Below, in pieces: positions 34,583-56,862 of a stretch of DNA of 64,000 nucleotides. Source of the DNA: Aestuariivirga sp. GTDB lineage: Bacteria > Pseudomonadota > Alphaproteobacteria > Rhizobiales > Aestuariivirgaceae. Made by a program: the position numbers and the translations under genes. How positions within the stretch are numbered: the stretch's first letter is position 1; the number at the start of each line of letters is the position of its first letter. Location: the NCBI RefSeq assembly GCF_044238155.1, contig NZ_JBIIDX010000001.1:3810-67809 (forward strand), given 5' to 3'. The notes beneath the pieces were generated by a model that saw only the letters and a list, made by a program, of their open reading frames with translations, had not been told where the DNA came from and did not search any database.

Positions 34583-35596
34583 TCATCGTGACATCACCTG
34601 CCGCACATGCCGGACGGCAGTGTCAAGATCGTCATGGGCAGCGCCCGGCCGGCCTCGCGCGGCGCCAGCACCAAACCAGCCGACACGTCCGTCAGCGACG
34701 AGGCGTTCAATCAGTGACCGGCGGTCTGCGGCGGTCTCGATCATGCCGGTCTCGAACAGCCAGCGCACAGGCGTCAGGCCTGTCCGCCGTTCCAACACGG
34801 CCTTGCGGTAGAGCCAGTTGCCCAGCCGCAGCTCGACGCCGCGACGCTGAGGCAGCGGATAGACCGAGACCCGCGGTGAAGCCTGCAGCGCATCGGCCAG
34901 CATGGATATCGAATCACTGGTCACCACGATTTCGGAGGCAGCGGACAGGGCCGCCCGGTAGTGGTTGTCGGGCTGCCCGAAGACGGTGAGCCGGTTGGGC
35001 GGCGTGATGGCCTGCCGCAGCATGGCGATTGCCACCTCGGGCGTGCGCGGGCTGGTGTGCACATCGAGCAGGCGGCCCTTGGCACTGGCATGCGCGAGGG
35101 CCTCGCGTGCAAGGTCCTGGGCCACCTGGCCGTCGAGCTGGTCGGGAAAGGCGGGTCCGCCCACCAGCAGAACCACCGGGCCGGTGCCTTCGTCGTTCGC
35201 CCGGGCTGGCGGCCGCGCAGCCAGCGGCATCTGCAGCTCAACCACATTGGCGGCTGCTGGCAGGCGATACTGCGCGGTGGTCAGCACCGCATCGAAGTGT
35301 TGGCTGGCGGCGGCCGGACGTCCGAGGCAGATGATTCGTGTATGGCCGCCAGACTTTTTCTTGATGTCGCGGGCGATCACGCTGGTCATGGCTTCCGCGC
35401 ACAGCACAAGATCGGGCCAGGGCGCCGCCGGCGGCTTGTCGACGCGCTGGCTGGCAAACAGTGGATGCGATGGTCCGCGAAAACGCAGCGTCTTGATTTC
35501 ATGCGGCCAGCCGAGTGCCTGGGCCAGCGCCAGCATTTGGTCAAGGTCGCCCTTGCGCCCGCCGGAGAGAAGCCAGACAATCGGCTCATCCGCCAT
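34583..35596 (-). CDS. ELM1 / DUF1022 family protein, copy 1
   Basis: ORF 34583..35725 with a preferred ATG at 35596 (MADEPIVWLLSGGRKGDLDQMLALAQALGWPHEIKTL...PWPDLVLC...RIICLG). 11-nt overlap with the upstream GT4 gene. Confidence 0.7.
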   Translation of the reverse strand: MADEPIVWLLSGGRKGDLDQMLALAQALGWPHEIKTLRFRGPSHPLFASQRVDKPPAAPWPDLVLCAEAMTSVIARDIKKKSGGHTRIICLGRPAAASQHFDAVLTTAQYRLPAAANVVELQMPLAARPPARANDEGTGPVVLLVGGPAFPDQLDGQVAQDLAREALAHASAKGRLLDVHTSPRTPEVAIAMLRQAITPPNRLTVFGQPDNHYRAALSAASEIVVTSDSISMLADALQASPRVSVYPLPQRRGVELRLGNWLYRKAVLERRTGLTPVRWLFETGMIETAADRRSLIERLVADGRVGWFGAGAARGRPGAAHDDLDTAVRHVRQVMSR

Positions 35597-36767
35597 GGGC
35601 CGTACTCTTCGCCTCGTGCAGCACGCGCTCGTAACTGGCCAGCAGGCCGGACAATATGGAATCCCAGCTATAGTCGAGCGCGCGCTGCCGGGCCGCCTTG
35701 CCCATACGCTGGCGCAGGCCGGCATCGCTCACCAGTGCGGCAAGTGCTGCAGCGAGGCCCGCCTCGTCGCCTGCGCTGACCAGCCGGCCGGTGGCTCCCT
35801 CCTGCACTAGTGAATTGCTGCCGCTCGACAGGGCGTTGACGGCAGGAAGCCCGCTGGCCATCGCCTCGAGGGTTACGTTGCCGAACGTTTCGCTCTCGCT
35901 TGGAAAGAAGAAGATGTCGGAAGAGGCATAGGCCGTTGCCAGCTCCTCGCCATGCAGAAAGCCTGCAAACACGCCGTTCATGAGGCCTTCCTTCATGCTG
36001 ACCAGTTCCGGCCCGTCGCCGATCACCAGTGGCCGTACCGCGCGCCCCTCTGCCGTGAGCCGGTTCATCACCCGCATGAACACGGCGGTATTCTTCTCCT
36101 TCACCAGCCGTCCGGCATAGGAGATCACCACCTCGCCATCGGCCATGCCAAGCCTCCGCCGCCAGTCCATGCTGCGCCTGTCCGGTGCGAACAGGCTGCT
36201 GTCGACGCCGCGCGCCCAGATCTCCACCGCCTGCGACTGGCCGTCGCGGCGGATGATCTCGGCCATCGATTCGGAGGGTGGATAGACGCGGCGTACCCGA
36301 TTGTAGAAATGGCGCAGGTAGCGCCGGCCCAATGGCTCGAGAAAGCCGAGGCCGTAGAAGCGGAGGTAGGTGTCATAGCGGGTGTGATAGGAGGCAACCA
36401 CGGGCACCCCCCAGCGCTCTGCGAGCTTCAGTGCCTGATAGCCCAGTATGTCCGGCACCGCGATGTGAAACAGTGTTGGCCGGAACGCCGCGAGCCGCTG
36501 CCTTGCGGTCTCGGGCAGTCCCCGTGCGATGCGGTATTCGGGGCGGCCCGGAATGGCGAAGGATGGCACCGGCACGAGCTCTCCGGCCGAGGCGAAGGCA
36601 GGGCTTTCTGCCACTGGCGCAAACACCAGAACCGGCACGCCGCGGCTTTCCAGAAATGCCACGAGACGGTTCAGCGTCAGTGCCACGCCGTCCTTGATGT
36701 AGTTGTAGTTGCCGGTGAACAGGGCCACCCGCAGCTCAGGGCCGGGCTGGCCTGTGCCGTCTGCCAC
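35586..36767 (-). CDS. glycosyltransferase family 4 (GT-B, retaining type)
   Basis: 393 aa. N-terminal FTGNYNYIKDGVA motif and a C-terminal E-x7-E-like region (FFFPSESETFGNVTLEAMASGLP). Confidence 0.85.
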   Translation of the reverse strand: MADGTGQPGPELRVALFTGNYNYIKDGVALTLNRLVAFLESRGVPVLVFAPVAESPAFASAGELVPVPSFAIPGRPEYRIARGLPETARQRLAAFRPTLFHIAVPDILGYQALKLAERWGVPVVASYHTRYDTYLRFYGLGFLEPLGRRYLRHFYNRVRRVYPPSESMAEIIRRDGQSQAVEIWARGVDSSLFAPDRRSMDWRRRLGMADGEVVISYAGRLVKEKNTAVFMRVMNRLTAEGRAVRPLVIGDGPELVSMKEGLMNGVFAGFLHGEELATAYASSDIFFFPSESETFGNVTLEAMASGLPAVNALSSGSNSLVQEGATGRLVSAGDEAGLAAALAALVSDAGLRQRMGKAARQRALDYSWDSILSGLLASYERVLHEAKSTAHGG

Positions 36768-36775
36768 GATGGGGC

Positions 36776-37702
36776 TCAGGCCGCGGCCTTCAGCGGCGCC
36801 AGCGGAGGCACGCTCTTCATGACGTCATAGGAATCATGCCGGATGAAGTTGTTGCTCATCGCCTCCTTGATCTGGGCGTCGGTCACCAGGCCCTTCTCAT
36901 AAGCCTCCTTCAGAAGGCCGAAGAAGAATGCCTCCTGATTGCGGTCGGGGTGGCGGGCATAGCGGCCGAGCAAGGCGTGATCGCCAAACAGCTTGCGCCG
37001 CATGCGCATGATCCAGCCGATAACGGGCACGAATTCGGTGGGCGTATAGTCAACCTTGAGGCCGGTCTTCCATGGCTGCGTGCGGCGCCTGGTGTTGTGG
37101 ATCATCTTGGTCGCCGGGGTGAGCTTGTCGAAGTCGTTCCACTCGTCCTCGAAGGTGCCAATGCTGTTGCGGTCCTCCATCAGCAGCGAGATCCAGTTGT
37201 GATAGTCGCGCTTGCCCTCGAACAGTTCGTTGAAGCTCTTTTCCACGTCCCAGTGCTTCAGCCGGGCGCAATCGAGCAGCATGACGCTCGAGGCGAAGGC
37301 GCCGTTCTTGAACTTCGAGCCGCGGCACATGATGGCCTTGCCCTTCATGTCGCGGCTGAGCAGCTCCCATACATCCTGAACCGCGAAGACATCCGGATCC
37401 ACCACCAGGGCGCGGCCCTGATAGCCCATCAGCTGCGGCGGCAGGAAGCGGGTCAGTGTGAAGGACTGCAGGTCATTCTCGTGCCAGACGCGCTTCACGC
37501 CATGGCGCATGTAGGTCTGCCCCTCGCGCTTGGCGAAGAAGGGGTAGTCTTCCTGCTGCATGACGGTGACGTCGAACTGGTCGGCATGCGCCGAATTGCG
37601 CTTCATCGAATAGGCCGAGACGATGGCGCCGATCGACTGCTTGTTGTTGGTCTGGATGAAGATATGGGGCCGAGTGGCGCCCGCATGTCCGGTCGCAGCC
37701 AT
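36776..37702 (-). CDS. GT8-like GT-A nucleotide-sugar transferase, copy 1
   Basis: 308 aa. TRFLPPQL...ALVVDPDVF (DxD-like)...SSVMLLD follows the order of GT8 motifs. It is a paralog of 52364..53278. Confidence 0.5.
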   Translation of the reverse strand: MAATGHAGATRPHIFIQTNNKQSIGAIVSAYSMKRNSAHADQFDVTVMQQEDYPFFAKREGQTYMRHGVKRVWHENDLQSFTLTRFLPPQLMGYQGRALVVDPDVFAVQDVWELLSRDMKGKAIMCRGSKFKNGAFASSVMLLDCARLKHWDVEKSFNELFEGKRDYHNWISLLMEDRNSIGTFEDEWNDFDKLTPATKMIHNTRRRTQPWKTGLKVDYTPTEFVPVIGWIMRMRRKLFGDHALLGRYARHPDRNQEAFFFGLLKEAYEKGLVTDAQIKEAMSNNFIRHDSYDVMKSVPPLAPLKAAA

Positions 37703-37807
37703 GACAGATCTCCGAAACTATTGCTTACTCGACGCCCGTGTATCATGTACTGACCGGCGGTTCAAACGCTGCCATCGGGCGGCTATCGGTCACAAGGGCA
37801 CAAGCTT

Positions 37808-38914
37808 TTGCAATCAAACGGGAATCCCGGTCAACAGGTGAGCCCGCCACGGGTCTGGGTGGTGCAGAGCCCGCATTCCGGCGACAACACCCAGCTCCGG
37901 GCCCTGGCAGCGGGCCTCGGCTGGCCCTCCGAGGTCAAGCAGCTCGTCTACCGCAATTGGGAACCGCTGGCCCGGCTGCTGAGCCTTGCCAGTCTCGCTG
38001 GCGTCGACCGTGCCCGTTCGAGCCCGTTGGCCCCGCCCTGGCCCGATCTGATCATCTGCTCCGGCCGCGCCGCCGAGGCGGTGGCCTTCTGGATCCGCAG
38101 GCAGAAGCCCTCTTGCCGCATTGTCTTCCTCGGAACTCCCTGGGCCGCCCATCGTCACTTCGACCTGATCATCACCACGCCGCAGTACCGGCTGCCGCAG
38201 GCCCGGAACATTCTGCACAATCTCTTGCCGCTGCATGATGCAACGCCAAACCTGCTGGCAGATGCGGCGGCGCGCTGGCAAGGGCGGCTGGCGCATCTGC
38301 CACTGCCGCTCACGGCTGTTCTGGTCGGTGGGCGCAGCGGCCCCTATCTGATGACGCCGGAGGCAGCCGCCCGGCTCGGGCGTGCCGCAAGCGACATCGC
38401 TGCAGCCGAGGGTGGCGCTCTCCTTGTCACCACCAGCGCCCGCACCAGCGAGGCGGCGGCAGCCGCACTCTTGGCGGCGATCGGGGTGCCCTGCCACCTG
38501 CACCGCTGGACCAAGGCGGCGGACGAAAACCCGTTTCATGCCTTCCTGGGGCTTGCCAGCCGCATCATCGTTACGGCCGATTCAGTATCGATGATGGCCG
38601 AGGCCGTCAGCACCGGGAAGCCGGTGCTGCTGTTTGACATTGAACATGGGCGTTATGCCATGCGCGCCGAAGATAGCGCCCCGCAGCCCGCGCCAATTGG
38701 CTGGCGTGGCCGCAGCCTTGATACCACGCTGTTCCGGCTGCTCATCAACCATGCGCCGGCGCGTTTCTCGCGCGACCTGCGCATCGTGCACCGGCAGCTG
38801 GTGGCCGCCGGCCATGCCCAGTGGATTGGCGCGCCGCAGCAGGCCCCGGTGCCCCCGCCCGGCGATGAGCTGGCCCGCGCGGTGGCTCGCATCCGCAGCC
38901 TTTTTGGCCTATGA
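37808..38914 (+). CDS. ELM1 / DUF1022 family protein, copy 2
   Basis: 368 aa from TTG at 37808 (GTG at 37838 is also possible). VWVVQSPHSGDNTQLRALAAGLGWPSEVKQL...PWPDLIICSG...RIVFLG aligns with copies 1 and 3. Confidence 0.7.
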   Translation: MQSNGNPGQQVSPPRVWVVQSPHSGDNTQLRALAAGLGWPSEVKQLVYRNWEPLARLLSLASLAGVDRARSSPLAPPWPDLIICSGRAAEAVAFWIRRQKPSCRIVFLGTPWAAHRHFDLIITTPQYRLPQARNILHNLLPLHDATPNLLADAAARWQGRLAHLPLPLTAVLVGGRSGPYLMTPEAAARLGRAASDIAAAEGGALLVTTSARTSEAAAAALLAAIGVPCHLHRWTKAADENPFHAFLGLASRIIVTADSVSMMAEAVSTGKPVLLFDIEHGRYAMRAEDSAPQPAPIGWRGRSLDTTLFRLLINHAPARFSRDLRIVHRQLVAAGHAQWIGAPQQAPVPPPGDELARAVARIRSLFGL

Positions 38915-38929: not shown

Positions 38930-40312
38930 TTGCCCGGGAATGCTGACCTGATGCCTGCCCATAGCCACAAGAGCCTTGCCGACCGGTGGGTCAGCCTCAG
39001 GGGGGCGGCCTGGAAGGCGCTGCTGCGCCAGGCAGAGGCCTTGGCCTATCTGGTCGCGGGCCTGCCGGTGGCGCTCAGGCACGCGTTCGCGCCACGGCCC
39101 ACGGCTGATCTTCCGTCTGCTGACTATCTTCACCGCTACTATGCCTGGAATTACTGGCGGTTGCCGTGGGGACCGGTCAAGGCCGTGCTGGCAGCGCTCG
39201 TCTGGCCGCTGGCGCTGGTCGTCACGCTGTGGCTGTTTACCAGGCGCAATGGCGCGGCGATTGCCGCACGCACTGGCATCGGCGTTCCAGCCCAGCTGCT
39301 GGGTCAGGTGGCGATGGCGCTGCGCTTCGGCATTGCGCCCTTCTGGTATTACATGTTCGAGCTCTATCTGCCCGAGCGCAGGCAGCGGGCCGGGCTTTAC
39401 CTCACCGCTCACGAGACGATTGGCCCGGCTTACGGGGCGCTGCAGCCGCCCCCGGGGGCCGATCACCTGGATGACAAGATCTGGTTTGCCGAACACTGCC
39501 ACCGGCAGGGCGTGCGGGCGGTGCCTGTGCTGATGCATTTCAGCCGTGGGCTGCCGCAGCAGCTTGCCGGCGGTGTTGATGAGCTGCCGCCCAGCGACCT
39601 GTTCGTGAAGCCGCGCTCAGGTTCCGGCGGCCACCGCATGGAACGCTGGGACTGCATCGGTGACGGGCGCTACCGCAACGCCCATGGCGAGGTACTCGAC
39701 CGTGCGGCCTTGATGGATAAGCTCAAGCTCCAGTCACTCAAGGATGACTTTCTGGTGCAGCCGCGGCTGGCCAACGATCCCGTGCTTGATGACATCGCCA
39801 ATGGCGCGCTGGCCACCGTGCGCCTGCTTACGTGCCGCAACGAGCAGGGCCAGCCGGAGGCCGTCAAGGCCGCCTTCCGCATGGCGATCGGCAATCAGGT
39901 GGTCGACAATTTCCACCAGGGCGGGCTGGCCACTGCGGTGGATCTTGGCACCGGCCAGATCGGCATCGCTTCCGATCTCGGCATCAGTCCAGGCGTTGGC
40001 TGGCGTGACACCCACCCGGTCAGCGGTGCGCGGTTTGCGGGCCGCACGCTGCCGCACTGGCGGCAAGTGGTGGCGCTGGGCATCCGGGCGCATCAGGCCT
40101 TCCCTGATCGCGTGGTCGTGGGCTGGGATATTGCCATGCTCGCCGACGGCGCAATGGTCATCGAAGGCAACGGCAGGCCCGACCTCGACATCCACCAGCG
40201 CGCTGAGCAAGGGCCTGCCGGTGAAAGCCGGATTGCGGACCTGTTGCGCTTCAATGTGGCAGGGGTGGGGCGCGGTTCCCATACTGAATGTCCGACTACA
40301 GCAATGCGTTGA
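38930..40312 (+). CDS. sugar-transfer-associated ATP-grasp family ligase with an N-terminal membrane segment
   Basis: 460 aa. Hydrophobic segments VKAVLAALVWPLALVVTLWLF and LLGQVAMALRFGIAPFWYYMF. ATP-grasp body LFVKPRSGSGG...FLVQPRL...NFHQGGLA...GWDIAMLADGAMVIEGN. Confidence 0.7.
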   Translation: MPGNADLMPAHSHKSLADRWVSLRGAAWKALLRQAEALAYLVAGLPVALRHAFAPRPTADLPSADYLHRYYAWNYWRLPWGPVKAVLAALVWPLALVVTLWLFTRRNGAAIAARTGIGVPAQLLGQVAMALRFGIAPFWYYMFELYLPERRQRAGLYLTAHETIGPAYGALQPPPGADHLDDKIWFAEHCHRQGVRAVPVLMHFSRGLPQQLAGGVDELPPSDLFVKPRSGSGGHRMERWDCIGDGRYRNAHGEVLDRAALMDKLKLQSLKDDFLVQPRLANDPVLDDIANGALATVRLLTCRNEQGQPEAVKAAFRMAIGNQVVDNFHQGGLATAVDLGTGQIGIASDLGISPGVGWRDTHPVSGARFAGRTLPHWRQVVALGIRAHQAFPDRVVVGWDIAMLADGAMVIEGNGRPDLDIHQRAEQGPAGESRIADLLRFNVAGVGRGSHTECPTTAMR

Positions 40313-42452: not shown

Positions 42453-43094
42453 TCATTTCAATTTCTTGAGGCGGATTTCGTAGACGTGCCCGTGCAAGTG
42501 GAAGAACGCGGGATAGCGCTCTGGGTCGCAAACGCGTAGTATGTCGAACTGTTCGGCAATCGATTTGCCCGGATCGATCTCGCTGTCTGCAGGTATGCGC
42601 CTTCGGTAATAACTTGCTGTGACCTCAGGTTGCGGCACTGGAATTCTTCCCTGCCGAATCATGCCTATCACCTCATCCATCAACTTCAGTTCGTTGGCGA
42701 AGAGAGCGGCGTTGATCTCTTCGTGGAGTGCATGTGGGGCTACCTCGAAAGTTCTCTTTGACCAAACATCACCACTGTCGACTTTCTCTGCCGCGTCGAT
42801 TGCGGAAACGGTCAGGGTGTGAGCGCCTTCGATGATAGCCCAGACGTGTGGGCTCCACCCTCGGCCTCTCGGCAGGTCACTTGCGTGCAGGACGATGACA
42901 TGCCCGTAGAGGGCCCTCCGTTCGGCCGGGATTATCTCGGAGCAGGAAATGAGGAACAGCACATCGCCACCGCCAAGCTTCTCCACCTCATGCAGTAGGG
43001 TTGTTTCATCGCCGGGTGTCTGCTGGTCACGCCAGGTCTCGAGCCAGGGAATGACCGGGTGATGGCGGCTCGAACAGAGAAGGTCGATCTTCAT
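42453..43094 (-). CDS. formyltransferase-domain protein occupying the slot where the acetyltransferase PseH would be expected
   Basis: 213 aa. IVLHASDLPRGRGWSP corresponds to the N-x-H-x-SLLPxxRG formyltransferase motif, but the Asn position is Val. VDSGDVW corresponds to the catalytic Asp region. Confidence 0.65.
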   Translation of the reverse strand: MKIDLLCSSRHHPVIPWLETWRDQQTPGDETTLLHEVEKLGGGDVLFLISCSEIIPAERRALYGHVIVLHASDLPRGRGWSPHVWAIIEGAHTLTVSAIDAAEKVDSGDVWSKRTFEVAPHALHEEINAALFANELKLMDEVIGMIRQGRIPVPQPEVTASYYRRRIPADSEIDPGKSIAEQFDILRVCDPERYPAFFHLHGHVYEIRLKKLK

Positions 43095-50972: not shown

Positions 50973-52328
50973 TTGGCGCGCATTTACATCAACATAGAAA
51001 TACAGAAGCGTGAGTTCGACGGAAGATTTTTGCTGGCCCTGATAGCAGCAGAACGTGGACATACCGTGCTGTTGGGTAACTTGAAGCCATTACTCCGCAA
51101 AGGTCTTCTGGCTCCCGGCATAATACTTGATAAGAGCCTGACCCCGCGGCCGGAAAAGCTTCTCATGATGAAGAATTCAAAAGAGCGCGGTTTTCTCGTA
51201 ACGAGTATTGACGAGGAAAGCGGTATTCTGCAGGGCGATTATTCGGCTTTTGCCAAAAAGCGCTACTCGGAGGAGTCCTTGCGGCTTGCGGATGCCGTAT
51301 TCTTCTGGGGACCCCATGACTTCGGTCACATGAACGAAGCCTTTCCAGCATTCCGTGACCGCTTTCATGTCACTGGCAATCCAAGAGTTGACATTTGGCG
51401 CTCTGAACTCACCCAATATTTTAGCAAGGCGAATCCCAATCCCCGGCCCTATGTGTTGCTGCCGTCTAACTTCAGCAGCATTTTCAGCCGCGATGATCTT
51501 GCAGTATCAATCAAGCGGCTCTGCCGAATGGGTTACATTGAGGAAAATGCGGTAGGGGATGCTTGGGAGGCGCGCACCTACCGCTACTGGCAGGAGGGCG
51601 TTGAGCTTGGTTGGGAGTTCATAACCGCGTTCAGACGTCTGGCTCGTCAATTTCCTGCGCTGGACTTCATCGTACGTCCTCATCCGACGGAATCTCCCGA
51701 TCTATGGAGGCAGCTTCTGCGCCCGCGGGAAAATCTCTCTATAAAGTCGGAGGGAAGCATTTCGCCGTGGATCCGACATGCGCGCGTTGTTGTAAATCAC
51801 GGATGTACAAGTGCTCTGGAAACCGCTCTTTCCGGTGTACCTCTGGTCAGTTACGAGCCTGCTATCAACCATAATTCTGATCTAGTTTTCCCGAAGAGAC
51901 TGGGGCTTTGTGCGCGCACCTACGATGAGCTTGAAACAGCCGTCAGTGAAGTCGTTTGTTCGAAACACAGGAATACAACGTCGTCTGACCTGGCTGTATT
52001 GAGTACAAGGCTGGCTGCGATCACGGGAAGGTTTGCGGCTGAGAGAATTGTAGATATCTGGGATGCGCTCGACAATCCGTTGCTCCGGAAAGGCGATCTT
52101 TGGTCTGATGAGCCAGGGTCGCGTCTTAGGGTAATGCCCTACCGTGTCGATGCTTACAAACTCTTGTCGATGGCTGGCTTCGGTCCCCAGAACTGGACTT
52201 CCTGGAAGTTCCCGCCATTTGATCAACGTGAAGTGCTTGAAGCAAAGTCCCTATTTGTCCAGACGCTTCGGCGTTTCGAAAAAGTGCCTGTCAGCCTGCT
52301 TGGGCCGCGTATAATCAGGGTCGGATGA
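50973..52328 (+). CDS. 'surface carbohydrate biosynthesis protein'-type protein (uncharacterised; possible GT-B-like transferase)
   Basis: 451 aa. The N-terminus IYINIEIQKREFDGRFLLALIAAERGHTVLLG matches my recollection of that family. The function is not established. Confidence 0.5.
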   Translation: MARIYINIEIQKREFDGRFLLALIAAERGHTVLLGNLKPLLRKGLLAPGIILDKSLTPRPEKLLMMKNSKERGFLVTSIDEESGILQGDYSAFAKKRYSEESLRLADAVFFWGPHDFGHMNEAFPAFRDRFHVTGNPRVDIWRSELTQYFSKANPNPRPYVLLPSNFSSIFSRDDLAVSIKRLCRMGYIEENAVGDAWEARTYRYWQEGVELGWEFITAFRRLARQFPALDFIVRPHPTESPDLWRQLLRPRENLSIKSEGSISPWIRHARVVVNHGCTSALETALSGVPLVSYEPAINHNSDLVFPKRLGLCARTYDELETAVSEVVCSKHRNTTSSDLAVLSTRLAAITGRFAAERIVDIWDALDNPLLRKGDLWSDEPGSRLRVMPYRVDAYKLLSMAGFGPQNWTSWKFPPFDQREVLEAKSLFVQTLRRFEKVPVSLLGPRIIRVG

Positions 52329-52363: not shown

Positions 52364-53278
52364 TTACACTGCAAAAAGTGGCTGTTCGTCCAGGGTTGGT
52401 GTCCGAAGCATCAAATCCAATGCATCGTGTCGAACATGGTTGAGTTTCATTTCGTGCCGGATCAAGCCATCGGTTACGATGCCCTTATCGTAACACTCTC
52501 GCAGCAATCCGAAGAATAGTCGCTCTTGTTTAGGGTCAGGATGCGGTTTGTAGCTTCCCATCAAACCGTATTCGCCGAAAAATTTACGACGCAGGCGATG
52601 ATAAACATTCTTGGGTGTAAATGCGCCCTTGGTTTCGGGTGGTCGGAAGTCTACCGGCAGTCCTGACTTCCACGGCTGGGTCAGGCGCTTGGTGTTGTGA
52701 AGCATTCGTGTTTGCTGGGAAAGCTGATCAAAGTCGTTCCAGACCGTTTCGAGCAGCCCAATCGTCTCTTGTGGCTCGAGTTGCAGCGTGATCCACTTCA
52801 TATAGTCGCGTCGAAATTCAAACATTTCCTCGAAATTTGTACGCACATTCCAGTGTGCAAGCTTGGTGTTATCGAGCAGCATAACGCTTGATGCCCAGAC
52901 ATCCTGTTTGCTGCCGGCACGGTGGCGTGCCATGATTGCAACTCCCCTCATGTCACGCGCTATGAGTTCGTTGACGTCGGAAATACAGAAGACATCTGGG
53001 TCAACGACAAGTGAGCGTCCCTGATAATTCATGAGCTCAGGTGGCGCGAAGCGCAGCACAGTAAAGGACTGAAGGTCTTCATTCAGCCACTCTCGCTTTA
53101 GCCCGTCGCGCAGATAAGCTTGGCCTTCGCGGTTCTTCATCCAGGCATAGTTGGTGGTCTCGATCAGGCGTACGTCAAAAGCAGACGGATCAGCAGAAAA
53201 TCTTTCAAATGAGTATTTTGAGACGAGCGCGCCGATGCTTTGCTTCTCATTGGTGTGAATGAAGATGGTGGGCTTCAT
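52364..53278 (-). CDS. GT8-like GT-A nucleotide-sugar transferase, copy 2
   Basis: 304 aa. It aligns along its full length with 36776..37702 (for example KQSIGALVS, REGQAYLR, DLQSFT, YQGRSLVVDPDVF, SSVMLLD). Confidence 0.5.
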   Translation of the reverse strand: MKPTIFIHTNEKQSIGALVSKYSFERFSADPSAFDVRLIETTNYAWMKNREGQAYLRDGLKREWLNEDLQSFTVLRFAPPELMNYQGRSLVVDPDVFCISDVNELIARDMRGVAIMARHRAGSKQDVWASSVMLLDNTKLAHWNVRTNFEEMFEFRRDYMKWITLQLEPQETIGLLETVWNDFDQLSQQTRMLHNTKRLTQPWKSGLPVDFRPPETKGAFTPKNVYHRLRRKFFGEYGLMGSYKPHPDPKQERLFFGLLRECYDKGIVTDGLIRHEMKLNHVRHDALDLMLRTPTLDEQPLFAV

Positions 53279-53352: not shown

Positions 53353-54360
53353 TTACTCAACCTTTCCCAGAACAAGCTGACGGAGTCGTTCTGCAACGCG
53401 AGCGGTATCGTCCGGCAACGGTTCTGCTGGACGGGAGAACACCTTCCCGAGAACTGCTGCGTGCCCGCTTTCGTAAAGCGGCACGATTGCCCTTCTGAGG
53501 TCACGTGCGCGGAACGCCACAGCCAGCCTGTCCCACCAGCCGGTCAAACCAGTGCGAATGGATGGTTCCGCTATCATCATTGGTTTTCCGAGTCTTGCCA
53601 CCTCAATGATCATTGAGAGGCTGTCTGCCGTCACAACGAAGTTGTCTCCATGGGCGAGAAGGCCGAGATAGGGGTTTTCGATGTCAGGTGTTCCCCAGCG
53701 GAAGAGCCGATCTTGTGGTCGGAGATGGGCTTCAAGTGCAACTGCCACCTTGTTTGGCGTACGGCGCGAAGCCGACACGTAAATGCTGCCGCTAGACGCA
53801 AAGCTTTGCTGCATGGTGCCCAGCACGGAAATGGCAAAGTTCGGATCAAGTTTCCGTAACCCCATGTCGCCTCCCAGGAGAAGAACGCTGAGTGGCCGCT
53901 GAAGCACATCGAACTGTGCCGCAAAGGCTGCATGCGCCGCTTCGACCTGACTTGGGTCAATACCGATCAGAGGCATGCGAATTTGCAGTTCGTTGGAATG
54001 CCCCGATGCCCGATAATAGGGCGGCAGAACAATCAGGTCGAAGGCAGATGCCCTTCCCTTGGCTGCATTGAAAAGTGCTACACGTGTGCGACCTCCGGAT
54101 TGCTGTTTGATCCAGAGCGCTACGAGCGAGAGATCACGGCCGATGGTCAGGACCGCGTCTGGCCAAGGCGGACCCAGTGGATCCGAAGCGACGACGTCAA
54201 GGTGACGGATCGTCGGGCGGACACGGGGTTTCAACCCCTGCTGTCCCTTCCGTATGACAATTGTCTTGATCTCATAAGGCAGGCGGGAAGCCTCGGCTGC
54301 GCGCAGGATCTGCGAATTGTCACCGGCCTTTGGCCCGGTCAGAACCCATAGGCTTGGCAG
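53353..54360 (-). CDS. ELM1 / DUF1022 family protein, copy 3 (apparent CTG start)
   Basis: The track gives 53353..54234 (TTG). The in-frame upstream 42 codons encode (L)PSLWVLTGPKAGDNSQILRAAEASRLPYEIKTIVI, homologous to the N-termini of copies 1 and 2. The only in-frame start candidate after the TAA is CTG at 54360, 6 nt after AAGAGGAGG. Confidence 0.55.
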   Translation of the reverse strand: MPSLWVLTGPKAGDNSQILRAAEASRLPYEIKTIVIRKGQQGLKPRVRPTIRHLDVVASDPLGPPWPDAVLTIGRDLSLVALWIKQQSGGRTRVALFNAAKGRASAFDLIVLPPYYRASGHSNELQIRMPLIGIDPSQVEAAHAAFAAQFDVLQRPLSVLLLGGDMGLRKLDPNFAISVLGTMQQSFASSGSIYVSASRRTPNKVAVALEAHLRPQDRLFRWGTPDIENPYLGLLAHGDNFVVTADSLSMIIEVARLGKPMMIAEPSIRTGLTGWWDRLAVAFRARDLRRAIVPLYESGHAAVLGKVFSRPAEPLPDDTARVAERLRQLVLGKVE

Positions 54361-54466: not shown

Positions 54467-55138
54467 CTAGAAGTCGTAACCTAGCAGCTGGATTGTCCGG
54501 TCCCAGCGAGCCGCCACCAAGTCTCTGCTTGAGGCCGTATAGTAGCTACGATAGTCTCGTGCTTCGCGATAGTTCCGCTTATCTTCAGGCAAGATGCCAA
54601 GGGCAAGGCCTGTTTGCGCTGCGATTTCGTTGACCGCGCTACTCAGCTCCTCGAAGCGGTATACCTTGTCTACTGCCACCAGCCCGTTCTCGGTGTACAG
54701 GTCCCAATTACTGATGATAGGGTATTCGTGGAGGAAACGGTCAAAATCCCAGTGAGAGGCTCTCTCCTTGCGCCGATAGAAAAACCAGTAACTTACAATG
54801 AAGTCCCAGGGGTTTCGATCGAAAGCATATTTTCGGTATTGCCCGAATGCGTCGGCTGACAGCCAGCGCCTAATCTGGCTGATCGGCATGTGGTCGTAGG
54901 CGAAGCGATGATGAAGCCAATGGTCGCGACCGATCCACTCGCGTGCACGAAACCATTTTGCCGACAATATGTCTGCAGGCCAAAGGCTGTAATAGTTCCT
55001 GCCGGCGACGGCTGGCAAAGAAATCGGCGTCCACGTATCACGAGGGTCCAGGTGTGGAATAATGGCGCGCTCAAGACTGGTAGAAGCAGTCTTTCGCGTC
55101 TTTACCAGGATGAAGCGGCGTGAGTGCGACAGGATCAT
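54467..55138 (-). CDS. sulfotransferase family protein (Sulfotransfer_2-like)
   Basis: 223 aa. N-terminal FILVKTRKTASTSL (5'-PSB-like) and DRNPWDFIVSYW (3'-PB-like). 4-nt overlap with the ABC exporter gene. Confidence 0.6.
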   Translation of the reverse strand: MILSHSRRFILVKTRKTASTSLERAIIPHLDPRDTWTPISLPAVAGRNYYSLWPADILSAKWFRAREWIGRDHWLHHRFAYDHMPISQIRRWLSADAFGQYRKYAFDRNPWDFIVSYWFFYRRKERASHWDFDRFLHEYPIISNWDLYTENGLVAVDKVYRFEELSSAVNEIAAQTGLALGILPEDKRNYREARDYRSYYTASSRDLVAARWDRTIQLLGYDF

Positions 55139-56862
55139 CTGCTGACCTGAAGATGGCTTTCCACACTCAGAACTCTCCCATCGTCGATCTCGTAAAGGCG
55201 ATCAGCGATTGTTGTCCATGCTGGTCGGTGAGTGATCGCCACTATCGTGTATTTTCCACGAAGCAATGCTATGTTATTGACGATTTCTTGTTCTGTGGCT
55301 GGGTCAAGCGCACTGGTCACCTCATCAAGGATCAGGAGTTCAGGTGATCCTACCAGTGCCCGGGCGAGAGATATACGCTGCCGCTGACCACCAGACATCT
55401 TGCCCCCCATCTCACCCACGTCGGTATCCAGCCCCTGCGGAAAATTTCTCACAAAGTCCTCTGCCTTTGCCTGCCGAAGTGCCGACCATACCATGTCATC
55501 GGTGAAGTGTGGATCATCGAACGTGATGTTCTCCCGTACTTTGGCGTGGAGCAAGCTTAGCTCCTGCGGAACATAACCAATTTTTCTGCGCCACTTGTAA
55601 AGATCAATGTCATTGAGCGAGACGCCATCAACAGTGATGCTGCCACGATCAGGTTCGTAGAGGCCGATGAGCAAGTCGATGATGGTTGTTTTTCCCGCAC
55701 CAGATGGCCCTCTCAAAACAGTGATTTGACCCGCGGGGATTTCAAGGTCGATACCACGAATGATCTCGGCCTCAGCATGAGAGAACGACACATTTTCAAA
55801 ACGGCACAGCTTGGTGATGGCTGCATCGAGCCTGCCCGGATTCCTCTCCTGATGTGACAGAGCCAAGGTGGTCAGTTCAGAAATGCGGGTGTAGAAGCGC
55901 TCAAACTTCACGGCTTGCTGTACAGCCTTCTGAACCTTAGAGAACATACTGTTGATCTTGAAGAAGATCACGGTGAAGACCAGTAATTCAGGAAGAGAAA
56001 CCTTCCATGACGTATAAGCAAAGTAAGCCGTGATTGTGATAAGCAACGTCACAACGACGTCATTACCAAGGTTCAAAGCCTGTTTTGACATCTCGACAGT
56101 GATCAGCGCCCGCCGCAGCTTAATGAGCTTCTGGCTAATCGGCCTGAGCATCGGTTCGAAGCGGTGCATTGCCTTCAGAGGTTTCATGTTGGCTATGAGG
56201 TCCACGACGCGGACAGTGAGTGCTCCTGTCATGTTTGCTTCACGGCTACCTGCCGCGCGGCTCAGTTTGACCAACCGGTTCATGGCTGTGGTAATGGCAA
56301 GACCTATCACGATACTGACGAGTGCTAGCTTCCAGCTATACACGAGCGCCACGGCTGCGAGCAGCACCGACTGCAGTCCCGCCGCAATCGCTTGAGCACC
56401 GAACAGATAGGCTTGACTGGCACGTGAGGCGTCATTGGCCACTGCAGCGGCGAAGTTGCCAGCATGCTGGTCAGCATAGAAGCGCCAGCTTGCGCCTATC
56501 GCCGCATTGATTAGTCGGTCCTGGAAGTCCACTGCAAGTTCTGCTGCGACTACAGCTGCATAGGATAGCGCAAGAAACGAGATCAGGGCCTTGAGTATGG
56601 CGGCCGCTGCAATTAGCAAGACGAGAGTCTCGAAACTCGGCGTCATTCCAGACCAAGCGATGATCTCTTGGACAAAGGCGCTCCCCTGAGATGCCTTGCC
56701 GTCCTGGGCATAAAGTGCCGCAGCGGCCGGTAGCAGGGCACCCACCCCGATGGCTTCAACCGCAGCAGCAACGACGAGGCTCAGCAGAACCAGAACGGAA
56801 CGTAGGCGATCACCTTGCAAGAATATCTTAAGGATCATATTCATTTGGAAACTTGCCAGCAA
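55135..56862 (-). CDS. fused ABC exporter (N-terminal transmembrane domain plus C-terminal ATPase, MsbA-like half transporter)
   Basis: 575 aa. Six-helix-like N-terminal half. Walker A GPSGAGKTT, signature MSGGQRQRISLAR, Walker [13 protein letters not shown]. Confidence 0.85.
   Translation of the reverse strand: MLASFQMNMILKIFLQGDRLRSVLVLLSLVVAAAVEAIGVGALLPAAAALYAQDGKASQGSAFVQEIIAWSGMTPSFETLVLLIAAAAILKALISFLALSYAAVVAAELAVDFQDRLINAAIGASWRFYADQHAGNFAAAVANDASRASQAYLFGAQAIAAGLQSVLLAAVALVYSWKLALVSIVIGLAITTAMNRLVKLSRAAGSREANMTGALTVRVVDLIANMKPLKAMHRFEPMLRPISQKLIKLRRALITVEMSKQALNLGNDVVVTLLITITAYFAYTSWKVSLPELLVFTVIFFKINSMFSKVQKAVQQAVKFERFYTRISELTTLALSHQERNPGRLDAAITKLCRFENVSFSHAEAEIIRGIDLEIPAGQITVLRGPSGAGKTTIIDLLIGLYEPDRGSITVDGVSLNDIDLYKWRRKIGYVPQELSLLHAKVRENITFDDPHFTDDMVWSALRQAKAEDFVRNFPQGLDTDVGEMGGKMSGGQRQRISLARALVGSPELLILDEVTSALDPATEQEIVNNIALLRGKYTIVAITHRPAWTTIADRLYEIDDGRVLSVESHLQVSR

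What the first reader, a model, noticed from the sequence alone, without database searches (positions are those of the whole stretch)
34583..56862. Candidate undescribed glycan system: a pse pathway with three ELM1/DUF1022 proteins, a GT8-like pair, a sugar-transfer ATP-grasp, two sulfotransferases and one ABC exporter, but no canonical assembly or export genes
Twenty genes sit in five tightly packed units:
- minus 37702->34583;
- plus 37808->41284;
- minus 50818->41330;
- plus 50973->52328;
- minus 56862->52364.

Many genes have overlapping stop and start codons.

The recognisable parts are a nucleotide-sugar pathway (pseB, pseC, pseG, pseI), one GT4, two sulfotransferases, two methyltransferase-like genes, an amidoligase-type ATP-grasp and one fused ABC exporter.

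The likely glycan-building steps fall to families with no characterised bacterial function: three ELM1/DUF1022 proteins, two GT8-like paralogs and a 'surface carbohydrate biosynthesis protein'.

Nothing in the window resembles a polyprenyl-phosphate priming transferase, Wzx, Wzy, Wzz, Wza, KpsM/T/E/D, an O-antigen ligase, flagellin, or a Maf/FlmG-type flagellin glycosyltransferase.

My inference is that the locus makes a sulfated, possibly aminoacylated glycoconjugate containing a modified pseudaminic acid, by a route different from the known Wzy-, synthase- or KpsMT-dependent schemes. Pse-containing K-antigens are known in Sinorhizobium (rkp-3 region), but those use KpsMT-like export.

An alternative is a glycosylated and sulfated small molecule or lipid exported by the ABC pump.
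Basis: partly seen in the sequence, partly recalled or inferred. Interest (0 to 1): 0.85.

Follow-up and report, generated by a model that had tools for sequence, protein, structure and literature searches.

The report
Strain-variable sulfated, pseudaminic-acid glycolipid locus
This is a real 22-kb gene cluster that most likely builds a sulfated sugar chain capped with pseudaminic acid directly on a membrane lipid and flips it outward with its own ABC pump; related clusters sit inside bacterial sphingolipid and Lpt-transport loci, pointing to an undescribed family of complex outer-membrane glycolipids.

Summary
All 20 genes are present as described, and nearly every family assignment was confirmed, including the GT8-like fold, the GT-B fold of the ELM1 proteins and the second sulfotransferase.

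The locus is uncharacterised and lacks polyprenol-type machinery. However, two of the "unknown" families have precedents:
- ELM1 is the GtrOC1 family of Acinetobacter LOS outer-core glycosyltransferases.
- TIGR04396 is related to the Tannerella Pse/Leg transferases.

The missing assembly genes are best explained by direct cytoplasmic assembly on a lipid acceptor. A module-specific MsbA/HepA-like ABC exporter would then flip the product.

The core genes (GT8-like, ELM1, sulfotransferase, ABC) recur across Alpha- and Gammaproteobacteria, Myxococcota, Binatia and Acidobacteriota. Outside the window's clade they are often embedded in clusters encoding serine palmitoyltransferase, ceramide synthesis genes and LptF/LptG. 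Roseomonas megaplasmids and an IncP plasmid carry such clusters. In the window's own clade no Spt gene is linked, so the anchor is unresolved: ceramide, lipid A core or glycerolipid.

The locus has a conserved inner part (34583-40312) and a horizontally exchanged, strain-variable outer cassette (40373-56862). A 99.9%-identical strain carries a different cassette, with the breakpoint at about 57033.

Verdict: new variant of a known kind; interest moderate to high.

The parts
34583..35596 (-). ELM1a: ELM1/GtrOC1-family GT-B glycosyltransferase, part of the conserved inner module
   Evidence: PF06258 at E 8e-35. The ORF runs to 35725, but the Met at 35596 gives the same 11-nt overlap with GT4 that is seen in L001 and L083.
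35586..36767 (-). GT4 retaining glycosyltransferase; candidate lipid-directed or priming glycosyltransferase
   Evidence: Glycos_transf_1 and Glyco_transf_4. The best NCBIfam match is GlcNAc-phosphatidylglycerol synthase at 166 bits, below its cut-off of 480, followed by MshA, BshA and MGlcDAG synthase. Present in 27 of 29 loci of the window's type.
36776..37702 (-). GT8-like GT-A glycosyltransferase a; unusually conserved signature gene of the system
   Evidence: No Pfam hit above threshold. Foldseek matches GlyE, LgtC and glycogenin. The DPD motif is invariant. There are 5438 homologues at 57-94% identity across phyla and 1227 clusters at 50% identity.
37703..37807 (.). 105-nt divergent intergenic region between the two conserved operons
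   Evidence: Gene coordinates. The same divergent layout is found in L001, L003, L083 and L093.
37808..38914 (+). ELM1b: ELM1/GtrOC1-family GT-B glycosyltransferase
   Evidence: PF06258 at E 2e-57. AlphaFold pLDDT 87, GT-B fold. Foldseek top hits are MGD1, MshA, MurG, GumK and WaaG. It is fused to the ATP-grasp in L001.
38930..40312 (+). Membrane-anchored sugar-transfer-associated ATP-grasp; probably amidates a sugar carboxylate
   Evidence: PF14397 at E 1e-38. One strong TM helix at residues 85-103.
40373..41284 (+). Sulfotransfer_1 (PAPS-dependent) sulfotransferase; first gene of the low-GC variable part
   Evidence: PF00685 at 82.9 bits. GC3 is 0.63 against 0.76-0.87 for the inner genes. 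In most loci of other lineages it lies directly upstream of the GT8-like gene.
41330..42385 (-). PseI, pseudaminic acid synthase
   Evidence: TIGR03586 at 493 bits against a cut-off of 340.
42453..43094 (-). Short formyltransferase-like protein in the position where PseH is expected; N-acyl or formyl transferase candidate
   Evidence: PF00551 at E 8e-10; ArnA/Fmt-like hits lie far below their cut-offs. No GNAT-type PseH is present.
43091..44188 (-). PseG, UDP-sugar hydrolase
   Evidence: TIGR03590 at 299 bits against a cut-off of 153.6.
44191..46230 (-). Fusion of a CTP_transf_3 cytidylyltransferase (candidate CMP-Pse synthetase) with a class-III aminotransferase
   Evidence: PF02348 plus PF00202. 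The N-terminal domain matches KdsB-like models at 73 bits and PseF at only 36.6 bits against a cut-off of 205.7. The same fusion occurs in the L094 cassette.
46212..47039 (-). Aldo/keto reductase, a Pse-cassette accessory gene
   Evidence: PF00248; conserved in L094.
47032..47673 (-). SAM-dependent methyltransferase
   Evidence: Methyltransf_25/11; weak match to the Pse-associated methylase TIGR03587.
47677..48819 (-). PseC aminotransferase
   Evidence: TIGR03588 at 543 bits against a cut-off of 423.5.
48819..49817 (-). PseB, inverting UDP-GlcNAc 4,6-dehydratase
   Evidence: TIGR03589 at 533 bits against a cut-off of 407.75.
50084..50818 (-).
   Evidence: No hit in Pfam or NCBIfam. A 207-aa gene occupies the same position in L094.
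50973..52328 (+). TIGR04396 'surface carbohydrate biosynthesis protein'; candidate CMP-Pse (nonulosonic acid) transferase
   Evidence: TIGR04396 at 246.7 bits against a cut-off of 125. The BFO_1060 glycosyltransferase domain scores E 3e-15, below its cut-off. An HP motif lies at residues 237-238. Relatives accompany other NulO pathways in L011, L013, L014, L018, L019 and L083.
52364..53278 (-). GT8-like glycosyltransferase b (outer paralogue)
   Evidence: 53% identical to copy a. It is paired with ELM1c in L007, L010, L011, L047, L083, L090 and L094.
53353..54360 (-). ELM1c glycosyltransferase, probably starting at CTG
   Evidence: PF06258 at E 2e-42. The conserved N-terminus is in frame upstream of TTG 54234. 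The Shine-Dalgarno sequence AAGAGGAGG is followed by CTG 54360. Orthologues are 320-342 aa long.
54467..55138 (-). Divergent Sulfotransfer_2-family sulfotransferase
   Evidence: No direct HMM hit. Homologues at E 1e-20 to 1e-30 carry PF03567. It overlaps the ABC gene by 4 nt.
55135..56862 (-). Fused TMD-NBD ABC exporter; proposed flippase for the finished lipid-linked glycan
   Evidence: ABC_membrane plus ABC_tran. HepA family scores 272 and MsbA 228 bits, both below their cut-offs. It scores 349 bits against the exporter of the Spt/Lpt-linked locus L060 but only 174 bits against MsbA structures.

Best explanation
The locus makes a lipid-anchored surface oligosaccharide, in the manner of an LOS or a glycosphingolipid. 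It does not make a polymer built on undecaprenyl phosphate.

**Proposed steps**
1. Soluble cytoplasmic glycosyltransferases add sugars one at a time to a membrane lipid acceptor at the inner face of the inner membrane. These are GT4, two GT8-like GT-A enzymes and three ELM1/GtrOC1-type GT-B enzymes.
2. A membrane-anchored ATP-grasp amidates a sugar carboxylate, and two PAPS-dependent sulfotransferases add sulfate.
3. A Pse pathway supplies a modified pseudaminic acid. It comprises PseB, PseC, an acyl/formyl-transferase-like enzyme, PseG, PseI and a KdsB-like cytidylyltransferase domain. The TIGR04396 enzyme transfers the Pse as a cap.
4. The dedicated MsbA/HepA-like ABC half-transporter flips the finished glycolipid, and Lpt-type machinery takes it to the outer membrane.

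**Architecture.** Genes 34583-40312 form a conserved inner module. Genes 40373-56862 form an exchangeable outer cassette.

**Shown:** gene content, folds, pathway assignments, cassette exchange, and the genomic linkage of the core genes to LptF/G and Spt/ceramide genes in relatives.

**Inferred:** the order of the steps, the donor sugars, the roles of the ATP-grasp and the exporter, and the anchor. For the anchor I rank (phospho)ceramide first, then lipid A core, then a glycerolipid.
For: **Local gene content**
- All glycosyltransferases are soluble. The only polytopic protein is the ABC exporter, and no polyprenol machinery lies in the 64 kb or to the right of it.
- ELM1 is the GtrOC1 family of LOS outer-core glycosyltransferases, and GT8 enzymes are typical of LOS and LPS core.
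- The ELM1 model is GT-B and lies closest to the lipid-directed MGD1 and MurG.
- The nearest characterised relatives of the GT4 glycosylate membrane lipids.
- The ATP-grasp is membrane-anchored and is fused to an ELM1 in L001.

**Co-location across lineages (79 species-representative loci)**
- The GT8-like gene lies with ELM1 in 67, with Sulfotransfer_1 in 49 and with the ABC exporter in 27.
- Among the 50 loci that are not of the window's type, 19 carry LptF/G and 10 carry an Spt gene at 51-56% identity to the reference.
- Of the 28 such loci with at least 15 kb of sequence, 19 carry an Lpt or sphingolipid marker.
- The linked alpha-oxoamine synthases are genuine serine palmitoyltransferases: PDB 2x8u at E 1e-121 and 6e-131, against about 1e-55 to 1e-66 for KBL.

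**Link to the known sphingolipid system**
- Roseomonas mucosa megaplasmids and Diaphorobacter IncP plasmid pDCB2 carry the GT8-like/ELM1 pair inside the gene set of the Caulobacter sphingolipid region. That set includes aasR, acpR, spt, cerR, a kinase, a CDP-alcohol transferase, a phosphoesterase, a HIT protein and LptF2/G2.
- Loci of the window's own type also hold a solitary LptF/G permease inside the module: L029, L031 and L093.

**Exporter and variability**
- The exporter is module-specific, scoring 349 bits against the L060 exporter and 174 bits against MsbA.
- The outer cassette behaves like a variable surface-glycan locus.
  - Its GC3 is 0.46-0.65, against 0.76-0.87 for the inner genes.
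  - L090 is 99.9% identical to the window from 57033 rightwards but carries a different cassette.
  - L083 carries another NulO pathway at the same site.
  - L094 carries the same Pse cassette in a different organism.
Against: - No lipid-anchor genes lie in the window: no spt, acp, cerS, lpx or waaA.
- None of the 29 loci of the window's type has Spt within 10 kb, and only 3 have an LptF/G gene.
- The minimal versions of the module, L086 and L087, have four genes and no exporter.
- The exporter fails the MsbA, PglK and HepA equivalog cut-offs, so its substrate is not established.
- PseH and PseF equivalogs are missing.
- Linkage in distant lineages is guilt by association, and many of the Lpt-linked gammaproteobacterial loci may be one conserved synteny block rather than independent events.
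- There are no experimental data for any member.
Confidence: 0.6

Rival explanations
1. Und-PP-linked oligosaccharide of the Wzk/PglK type. A WecA-like priming enzyme encoded elsewhere starts the glycan on undecaprenyl phosphate. The local glycosyltransferases complete it, and the ABC half-transporter flips it as PglK does (or Helicobacter Wzk, from memory). A WaaL or an oligosaccharyltransferase encoded elsewhere then attaches it to lipid A core or to proteins.
For: - Priming enzymes such as WecA commonly lie outside glycan loci (general knowledge).
- The exporter matches PglK at 179 bits, comparable with its MsbA match.
- A Wzy_C/WaaL-like gene lies inside the related gammaproteobacterial locus L060, with weaker matches in L037 and L077.
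- The Roseomonas locus has an oligosaccharide flippase and a GT39.
Against: - No priming transferase, ligase or oligosaccharyltransferase is present in the window or in any of the 29 loci of the window's type.
- The consistent partners in other lineages are sphingolipid and Lpt genes, not und-P enzymes.
- The extreme conservation of the GT8-like enzyme suggests a conserved, non-glycan acceptor.
Confidence: 0.14
2. A secreted, non-lipid product. The enzymes build a sulfated, amidated oligosaccharide or glycoside that the ABC exporter pumps out directly, as NdvA/ChvA does for cyclic glucan or as HepA-type exporters do for envelope polysaccharide.
For: - The best NCBIfam match of the exporter is the HepA family at 272 bits, and the glucan exporters score 170-205 bits.
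- No anchor genes are local.
- The four-gene minimal modules L086 and L087 lie among metabolic genes.
Against: - LptF/G permeases, which extract lipids, lie inside the module in L029, L031 and L093 and beside it in many other lineages.
- The ATP-grasp is membrane-anchored.
- The core genes are embedded in ceramide clusters.
- The strain-level cassette swapping is typical of exposed cell-surface structures.
Confidence: 0.1
3. Protein glycosylation. The Pse pathway and the glycosyltransferases decorate flagellin or another protein in the cytoplasm. The GT8-like enzyme would act on a protein, as its structural neighbours GlyE, glycogenin and UGGT do.
For: - Pse is best known from flagellin glycosylation (general knowledge).
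- The top structural matches of the GT8-like model include protein-directed GT8/GT24 enzymes.
- Its high sequence conservation would suit a conserved protein acceptor.
Against: - No flagellin, Maf/FlmG or flagellar genes occur in the window or in any related locus.
- A dedicated ABC exporter and LptF/G linkage make no sense for cytoplasmic protein modification.
- Most related loci have no Pse genes at all.
Confidence: 0.05
4. The locus makes a capsule-like or K-antigen-like sulfated polysaccharide by a truly new polymerisation and export route, independent of any lipid-A-like or ceramide-like anchor and of the known machineries.
For: - No known polymerase or export set is present.
- Several proteins have no family assignment.
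- The locus is uncharacterised.
Against: - There is no candidate polymerase, synthase, outer-membrane channel or co-polymerase.
- The number of glycosyltransferases (six, plus the NulO transferase) fits a defined oligosaccharide.
- The gene families are those of LOS and glycolipid assembly.
- The exporter and the Lpt linkage provide a conventional route.
Confidence: 0.06

Closest known systems
Acinetobacter baumannii LOS outer-core (OC) loci (Kenyon, Nigro & Hall 2014, PMC4172580)
   Same: - Clusters of soluble glycosyltransferases that extend a lipid-anchored oligosaccharide directly.
- They include PF06258 (Mito_fiss_Elm1) proteins (GtrOC1/14/19/22), GT4 and GT8 enzymes.
- They have no Wzx/Wzy and no priming transferase.
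- They combine a conserved portion with variable cassettes exchanged by recombination.
   Different: - OC loci encode no dedicated ABC exporter, sulfotransferases, ATP-grasp or nonulosonic-acid pathway; MsbA and Lpt are encoded elsewhere.
- The anchor there is known to be lipid A-Kdo; here it is unknown.
- The GT8-like family here falls below the Pfam GT8 threshold.
- GtrOC1 itself has not been characterised biochemically.
Caulobacter crescentus sphingolipid synthesis and transport region CC_1152-CC_1168 (PMC11324152) and the ceramide glycosyltransferases Sgt1/Sgt2 (PMC6445935)
   Same: - A lipid made at the inner membrane is given a head group by cytoplasmic enzymes. It is then proposed to be flipped and carried outward by second copies of LptC/F/G.
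- Relatives of the window's GT8-like, ELM1, sulfotransferase and ABC genes sit inside orthologous clusters in Roseomonas, Diaphorobacter and many MAGs.
   Different: - No GT8-like, ELM1 or sulfotransferase gene is described for the Caulobacter region in PMC11324152.
- Its proposed flippase is Wzx-like (CC_1166), not an ABC exporter.
- Its products are ceramide phosphoglycerates and a disaccharide GSL.
- The window has no spt, acp, cerS or lptF/G genes.
Pseudaminic acid pathway PseB-C-H-G-I-F (Campylobacter/Helicobacter type) and the Tannerella forsythia Pse/Leg-derivative transferases (PMC5420450)
   Same: - PseB, PseC, PseG and PseI are equivalogs.
- The TIGR04396 protein shares the C-terminal region and the HP motif with the BFO_1060/Tanf_01245 family. 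Deleting members of that family removes the terminal nonulosonic acid.
   Different: - The GNAT PseH is replaced by a short formyltransferase-like protein.
- No PseF equivalog is present. Instead there is a KdsB-like cytidylyltransferase fused to a class-III aminotransferase, plus an AKR and a methyltransferase, which suggests a modified Pse.
- The acceptor is not a flagellin or an S-layer O-glycan.
Sinorhizobium rkp-3 Pse-containing K-antigen and sulfated rhizobial surface glycans (cited from memory; not tested here)
   Same: An alphaproteobacterial surface glycan that contains Pse-type sugars, and/or PAPS-dependent sulfation of a surface glycoconjugate.
   Different: - Those systems use KpsMT-like or other capsule export, and separate loci.
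- None of the signature genes of this module (GT8-like, ELM1, ATPgrasp_ST, this ABC family) is known from them.

Membership tests
Pseudaminic acid biosynthesis pathway | PseB, PseC, PseG and PseI equivalogs | tested here: met
   TIGR03589 scores 532.6 against a cut-off of 407.75, TIGR03588 543.4 against 423.5, TIGR03590 299.4 against 153.55, and TIGR03586 493.1 against 340.25.
Pseudaminic acid biosynthesis pathway | PseH (GNAT N-acetyltransferase) and PseF (CMP-Pse synthetase) equivalogs | tested here: not met
   No GNAT is present; a formyltransferase-like protein occupies the PseH position. The cytidylyltransferase domain scores 36.6 bits against the PseF cut-off of 205.7 and matches KdsB-like models better. 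Functional substitution is plausible but is inferred.
ELM1/GtrOC1 (PF06258) glycosyltransferases | Match to PF06258 above the gathering score | tested here: met
   120.8, 192.1 and 142.8 bits against a cut-off of 27.
ELM1/GtrOC1 (PF06258) glycosyltransferases | GT-B two-Rossmann fold able to bind a nucleotide sugar | tested here: met
   The AlphaFold model has pLDDT 87 and pTM 0.85. The Foldseek top hits are all GT-B: MGD1, MshA, MurG, GumK, GT9 and WaaG.
ELM1/GtrOC1 (PF06258) glycosyltransferases | Glycosyltransferase activity on a lipid-linked core | not testable with these tools
   The only support is prediction and knock-down phenotypes in A. baumannii.
CAZy/Pfam GT8 | Match to PF01501 above the gathering score | tested here: not met
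   14.2 and 14.8 bits against a cut-off of 24.3. The profile-against-PDB search gives GlyE at E 0.34.
CAZy/Pfam GT8 | GT-A fold with a DxD motif, resembling retaining GT8 enzymes | tested here: met
   All Foldseek top hits are GT8/GT24 (E 4e-7 to 1e-3), although TM-scores are only 0.35-0.44 and the model pLDDT is 74. D102-P103-D104 is invariant.
MsbA lipid A flippase | Equivalog-level similarity to MsbA | tested here: not met
   TIGR02203 scores 228 bits against a cut-off of 602. MsbA structures score 174 bits. The architecture, a fused type-IV exporter half-transporter, is the same.
Wzx/Wzy-, Wzm/Wzt-, synthase- or KpsMT-dependent polysaccharide loci | A priming transferase plus flippase/polymerase, or a type-2 ABC pair, or a synthase, plus an outer-membrane export component | tested here: not met
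   None was found by Pfam among the scanned ORFs of the window. No further polytopic proteins lie in the region. None lies to the right of the window.
Bacterial sphingolipid synthesis/transport cluster (Caulobacter CC_1152-1168 type) | spt, acpR, aasR, cerR and cerS, with LptF2/G2, in the locus | tested here: not met
   These genes are absent from the window and from all 29 loci of its type; a solitary LptF/G occurs in L029, L031 and L093. They are present around the homologous genes in L035, L037, L044, L052, L053, L068, L074, L077, L079, L081, L088 and L089. Whether the source genome has spt elsewhere could not be tested.
Nonulosonic acid transferases of the BFO_1060/Tanf_01245 family | Match to NF046086 above its cut-off, with D/E-D/E-G and HP motifs | tested here: inconclusive
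   56 bits against a cut-off of 200. The HP motif is present at residues 237-238, but no exact D/E-D/E-G motif was found. TIGR04396 itself is met at 246.7 bits against 125.
Sulfotransferases (PAPS-dependent) | Match to a sulfotransferase HMM | tested here: met
   40373-41284 matches PF00685 at 82.9 bits against a cut-off of 22. 54467-55138 qualifies only transitively, through homologues that carry PF03567.

The most novel reading that the evidence does not exclude
The window encodes the head-group machinery of a ceramide-anchored, LPS-like glycolipid: a sulfated glycosphingolipid capped with pseudaminic acid. This would be a bacterial counterpart of sulfatides and gangliosides.

- The highly conserved GT8-like enzyme would put the first sugar on (phospho)ceramide.
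- The module-specific ABC exporter would act as a dedicated flippase.
- LptF/G paralogues would carry the lipid to the outer membrane.

The same core module (GT8-like, ELM1, sulfotransferase, ABC) would then mark an unrecognised and widespread class of complex sphingolipids. It occurs in Alpha- and Gammaproteobacteria, Myxococcota, Binatia and Acidobacteriota, and is sometimes plasmid-borne.
Probability: 0.3. Interest if true: 0.85.

Novelty: new variant of a known kind. Interest (0 to 1): 0.62.

Why it matters
**A tractable explanation.** If the reading is right, the puzzle of a glycan locus without assembly genes has a simple answer: direct assembly on a lipid.

**A new marker set.** The work also exposes a conserved, unstudied gene set: a GT8-like family with no Pfam model, ELM1/GtrOC1 glycosyltransferases, a sulfotransferase and a dedicated MsbA-like exporter. 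This set marks complex outer-membrane glycolipids in many uncultured lineages.

**Open questions it makes testable.** Its embedding in serine-palmitoyltransferase/LptF2G2 clusters bears on how bacterial sphingolipids are flipped and exported, and on how large their glycans can be. Cultured Roseomonas mucosa, a skin commensal used therapeutically, carries such a cluster.

**Ecological relevance.** Sulfate and a sialic-acid-like cap on such lipids would matter for phage and predator recognition and for host interaction. The strain-level cassette swap shows that the structure is under diversifying selection in freshwater Aestuariivirga populations.

Tried and rejected
**Ideas tested and dropped**
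- **The exporter is MsbA itself.** Rejected: it scores 228 bits against a cut-off of 602, and is twice as similar to the exporters of related modules as to MsbA.
- **The LptF/G genes next to the module prove an LPS core function.** Weakened: the same neighbourhoods contain true Spt and the Caulobacter-type sphingolipid gene set, where second Lpt copies are known.
- **Flagellin glycosylation island.** No flagellar, Maf or flagellin genes occur anywhere.
- **RiPP or peptide product exported by the ABC.** There is no precursor or peptidase domain, and the ATP-grasp is of the sugar-transfer type.
- **Mobile element or IS at the cassette borders.** No significant direct or inverted repeats and no tRNA lie at 41.3 or 57.0 kb. 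Exchange looks like homologous recombination in the flanks.
- **ELM1c is an N-terminally truncated pseudogene.** Rejected in favour of a CTG start behind a strong Shine-Dalgarno sequence.

**Searches that led nowhere**
- Sequence searches of the ELM1, TIGR04396 and 223-aa proteins against PDB gave nothing useful.
- The Iyer et al. ATP-grasp paper could not be retrieved.
- Literature searches for DUF1022, for ELM1 with Pse, and for sulfotransferase with Spt and LptG returned nothing.
- I could not determine whether Aestuariivirga genomes carry spt.

Full report
**1. What is in the sequence**

The window is high-GC DNA (about 63%) with a lower-GC stretch at 40-56 kb (49-59%). Six gene junctions overlap and most other gaps are short.

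Third-position GC splits the region in two:
- Genes 34583-40312 have GC3 of 0.76-0.87, like the rest of the chromosome.
- Genes 40373-56862 have GC3 of 0.46-0.65.

The remainder of the window encodes ordinary metabolism and transport. Examples are aminotransferase, OTCase, Hsp33, Opp-type ABC importers, GAPDH, photolyase, an amidohydrolase, a DAO/GCV_T dehydrogenase, an M50 peptidase and an amidase. No gene resembles a polyprenyl-phosphate glycosyltransferase, Wzx, Wzy, Wzz, Wza, KpsMTED, WaaL, flagellin or Maf. By hydropathy, the ABC exporter is the only polytopic protein in the region and the ATP-grasp has one N-terminal TM helix.

**2. Family assignments**

- PseB, PseC, PseG and PseI pass the NCBIfam equivalog cut-offs.
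- Three proteins match PF06258 (ELM1). Also present are a GT4, PF14397 (ATPgrasp_ST), PF00685 (Sulfotransfer_1), a SAM methyltransferase, an aldo/keto reductase, a CTP_transf_3 + Aminotran_3 fusion, a short formyltransferase-like protein and a fused ABC exporter.
- The protein at 50973-52328 passes TIGR04396. It also matches, below cut-off, the BFO_1060 glycosyltransferase domain. That family contains the Tannerella forsythia enzymes whose deletion removes the terminal Pse or Leg derivative (PMC5420450).
- The two 'GT8-like' proteins are 53% identical and lack a Pfam assignment. An AlphaFold model (pLDDT 74) matches only GT8/GT24 GT-A enzymes, and a DPD motif is invariant.
- An ELM1 model (pLDDT 87) is a GT-B fold nearest to MGD1, MshA, MurG, GumK and WaaG.
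- The 223-aa protein upstream of the ABC gene is a divergent Sulfotransfer_2 member, shown by transitive homology.
- The 244-aa protein at 50084-50818 remains unassigned.
- Canonical PseH and PseF are missing. The formyltransferase-like protein and the KdsB-like cytidylyltransferase domain are the positional candidates.
- ELM1c most likely starts at CTG 54360, behind an AAGAGGAGG Shine-Dalgarno sequence.

**3. The 'unknown' families have precedents**

NCBI now names PF06258 proteins 'ELM1/GtrOC1 family putative glycosyltransferase'. In Acinetobacter baumannii, GtrOC1, 14, 19 and 22 of the LOS outer-core loci belong to this family. GtrOC1 is shared by all locus groups and is proposed to make the first inner-to-outer core linkage (PMC4172580). 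Its knock-down clusters with lpt and LOS genes (PMC11975115).

LOS and LPS core are built sugar by sugar on a lipid at the cytoplasmic face and flipped by an MsbA-type exporter. That route needs no priming transferase, Wzx or Wzy.

**4. Comparative genomics**

The GT8-like protein is remarkably conserved:
- It has 5438 hits, at 69-94% identity in Aestuariivirga and other Hyphomicrobiales.
- It is 57-64% identical in Gammaproteobacteria (Thiogranum, Methylohalobius, Competibacteraceae), Rhodospirillales, Myxococcota, Binatia and Terriglobales.
- It forms 1227 clusters at 50% identity.

I ran tblastn of the window's proteins on 79 species-representative loci. They fall into two layouts.

*The window's type (29 loci):*
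- The layout is ELM1-GT4-GT8-like, divergent from ELM1-ATPgrasp(-Sulfotransferase).
- ELM1 is present in 29 of 29 and GT4 in 27 of 29.
- A variable region follows. It may hold the ABC exporter (8 loci), further sulfotransferases, a second GT8-like/ELM1 pair, or a NulO pathway with a TIGR04396 gene (5 loci).
- Minimal versions have only four genes.

*All other lineages (50 loci):*
- The sulfotransferase lies directly upstream of one to three GT8-like genes.
- One to four ELM1 genes and the ABC exporter accompany them.

**5. Link to Lpt and sphingolipids**

- In the gammaproteobacterial locus L060 the module contains a Wzy_C/WaaL-like gene, LptF, LptG, the ABC exporter and ELM1 genes. LptF/G recur in 19 of the 50 non-window-type loci.
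- A tblastn search of plasmids found the GT8-like/ELM1 pair in Roseomonas mucosa and R. gilardii megaplasmids and on the Diaphorobacter IncP plasmid pDCB2.
  - There it sits among fatty acyl-AMP ligase, ACP, a class-I/II aminotransferase and an SDR.
  - It is also flanked by a CDP-alcohol phosphatidyltransferase, cytidylyltransferases, a DAG-kinase-family protein, a metallophosphoesterase, a HIT protein and two LptF/G permeases.
- This is the gene set of the Caulobacter sphingolipid synthesis-and-transport region CC_1152-CC_1168. There, second copies of LptC/F/G and a flippase are proposed to export phosphosphingolipids (PMC11324152).
- The aminotransferases are genuine serine palmitoyltransferases.
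- The same lipid genes flank the module in at least ten MAG loci: L035, L037, L044, L052, L053, L068, L074, L077, L079 and L081.
- The window's exporter is twice as similar to the exporter of these loci (349 bits) as to MsbA structures (174 bits). It therefore belongs to a module-specific family, which here takes the place of the Wzx-like CC_1166.
- In the window's own clade no Spt gene is linked (0 of 29). However, a solitary LptF/G-family permease lies inside the module in L029, L031 and L093.

**6. Population-level behaviour**

- A metagenomic contig (L091) is 99.975% identical to window 55962-64000.
- Another contig (L090) is 99.9% identical from 57033 rightwards. To the left of the M50 peptidase gene it carries a different ELM1/GT8-like pair, with its GT8-like gene only 72.5% identical to the window's copy.
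- The nearest long relative (L083) is syntenic through the flanks and the inner module. It carries another nonulosonic-acid set (NeuB-cupin fusion, GFO/IDH oxidoreductase, HAD hydrolase, TIGR04396) where the window has Pse.
- A more distant organism (L094) has the window's Pse cassette in nearly the same gene order.
- No repeats or mobile-element genes mark the cassette borders.

The locus is therefore a conserved inner module plus an outer cassette that is exchanged horizontally. This is the pattern expected of an exposed surface structure.

**7. Interpretation**

The best-supported mechanism is direct cytoplasmic assembly of a defined oligosaccharide on a membrane lipid. The glycan would be modified by an amide bond, sulfate and methyl groups and capped with a modified Pse. 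The dedicated ABC exporter would flip it, and Lpt-type machinery would carry it to the outer membrane (confidence 0.6).

The anchor is unresolved:
- **Ceramide.** The roughly 60% identity of the GT8-like enzyme to copies embedded in Spt clusters argues for the same, conserved acceptor.
- **Lipid A core.** The GtrOC1 precedent supports this.
- **Glycerolipid.** The GT4 is specific to the window's clade, and its closest characterised relatives are GlcNAc-PG and MGlcDAG synthases.

Rival explanations are an und-PP-linked glycan flipped by a PglK/Wzk-like exporter with priming and ligation genes elsewhere, a secreted non-lipid product, protein glycosylation, and a truly new polysaccharide route. 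Each fits fewer observations.

**8. Novelty and score**

No paper in the library connects ELM1 or GT8-like genes, or a sulfotransferase, with bacterial sphingolipid or Lpt clusters. The sphingolipid papers I read do not mention them. The mechanism class is known, so I rate the finding as a new variant of a known kind.

The module is a good entry point into complex bacterial glycolipids. The strongest reading is a sulfated, Pse-capped glycosphingolipid, to which I give probability 0.3; it would be very interesting if true. Overall interest: 0.62.

Noticed in passing
window 24141-31644: A tRNA-Met gene (24141-24217) is followed by about 7.4 kb that is absent from the syntenic relative L083. The first ~4 kb is lower-GC (57-58%) and the rest is near the chromosomal average. 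The segment encodes a 321-aa unknown protein, a DUF6065 protein, a GT2 glycosyltransferase, a 292-aa protein with a weak NHL repeat match, a DUF4440 protein, a large amidohydrolase and a 118-aa ORF. It looks like a tRNA-associated insertion, but no integrase or flanking direct repeat was found.
   Followed up: partly
window 53353-54366: ELM1c has no ATG, GTG or TTG start upstream of its conserved N-terminal motif. A strong Shine-Dalgarno sequence (AAGAGGAGG, 54375-54367) is followed by CTG at 54360. This suggests a rare CTG initiation codon or a recent start-codon mutation.
   Followed up: yes
window ~57033; L090 1-2566: There is a sharp recombination breakpoint between the ABC exporter gene and the M50/CBS peptidase gene. 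A strain 99.9% identical to the right of this point carries a different ELM1/GT8-like cassette to the left.
   Followed up: yes
L089 (Diaphorobacter sp. JS3051 plasmid pDCB2, NZ_CP065408.1 29478-58323): A conjugative IncP plasmid carries a complete-looking cluster next to a Tn3 transposase. The cluster has Spt, ACP, acyl-AMP ligase, SDR, a CDP-alcohol transferase and LptF/G, together with NRPS, P450, GT8-like and ELM1 genes. Sphingolipid-type outer-membrane lipid synthesis and export therefore appears to be plasmid-mobile.
   Followed up: partly
L001 7425-9881: In one Hyphomicrobiales genome the ELM1b and ATPgrasp_ST genes are fused into a single 818-aa protein. This Rosetta-stone fusion suggests that the two enzymes act consecutively on the same substrate.
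   Followed up: no
L094 2527-6955: A DDE transposase and phage-type recombination genes (two Sipho_Gp157, one Rad52/DUF968) are inserted between the ATP-grasp and sulfotransferase genes of a related locus that carries the same Pse cassette.
   Followed up: no
L002 10001-15421; L086 10001-18647: In a Dongiaceae MAG (L002) and another alphaproteobacterial genome (L086), the GT8-like gene lies next to the same set of neighbours: a carnitine O-acyltransferase, a NAD_binding_9 protein, an M19 dipeptidase and GT4 genes. In L002 it has no ELM1, sulfotransferase or exporter nearby, so the GT8-like enzyme may also work outside the full module. A DAO/GCV_T dehydrogenase gene lies next to the module in the window, L002, L029 and L083; the reason is unknown.
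   Followed up: no
window 44191-47673; L094 17204-20052: A conserved sub-cassette lies inside the Pse operon. It consists of a KdsB-like cytidylyltransferase fused to a glutamate-1-semialdehyde-aminomutase-like aminotransferase, plus an aldo/keto reductase; the window also has a methyltransferase. It may make a modified Pse or a second CMP-activated sugar. Its function is unknown.
   Followed up: partly
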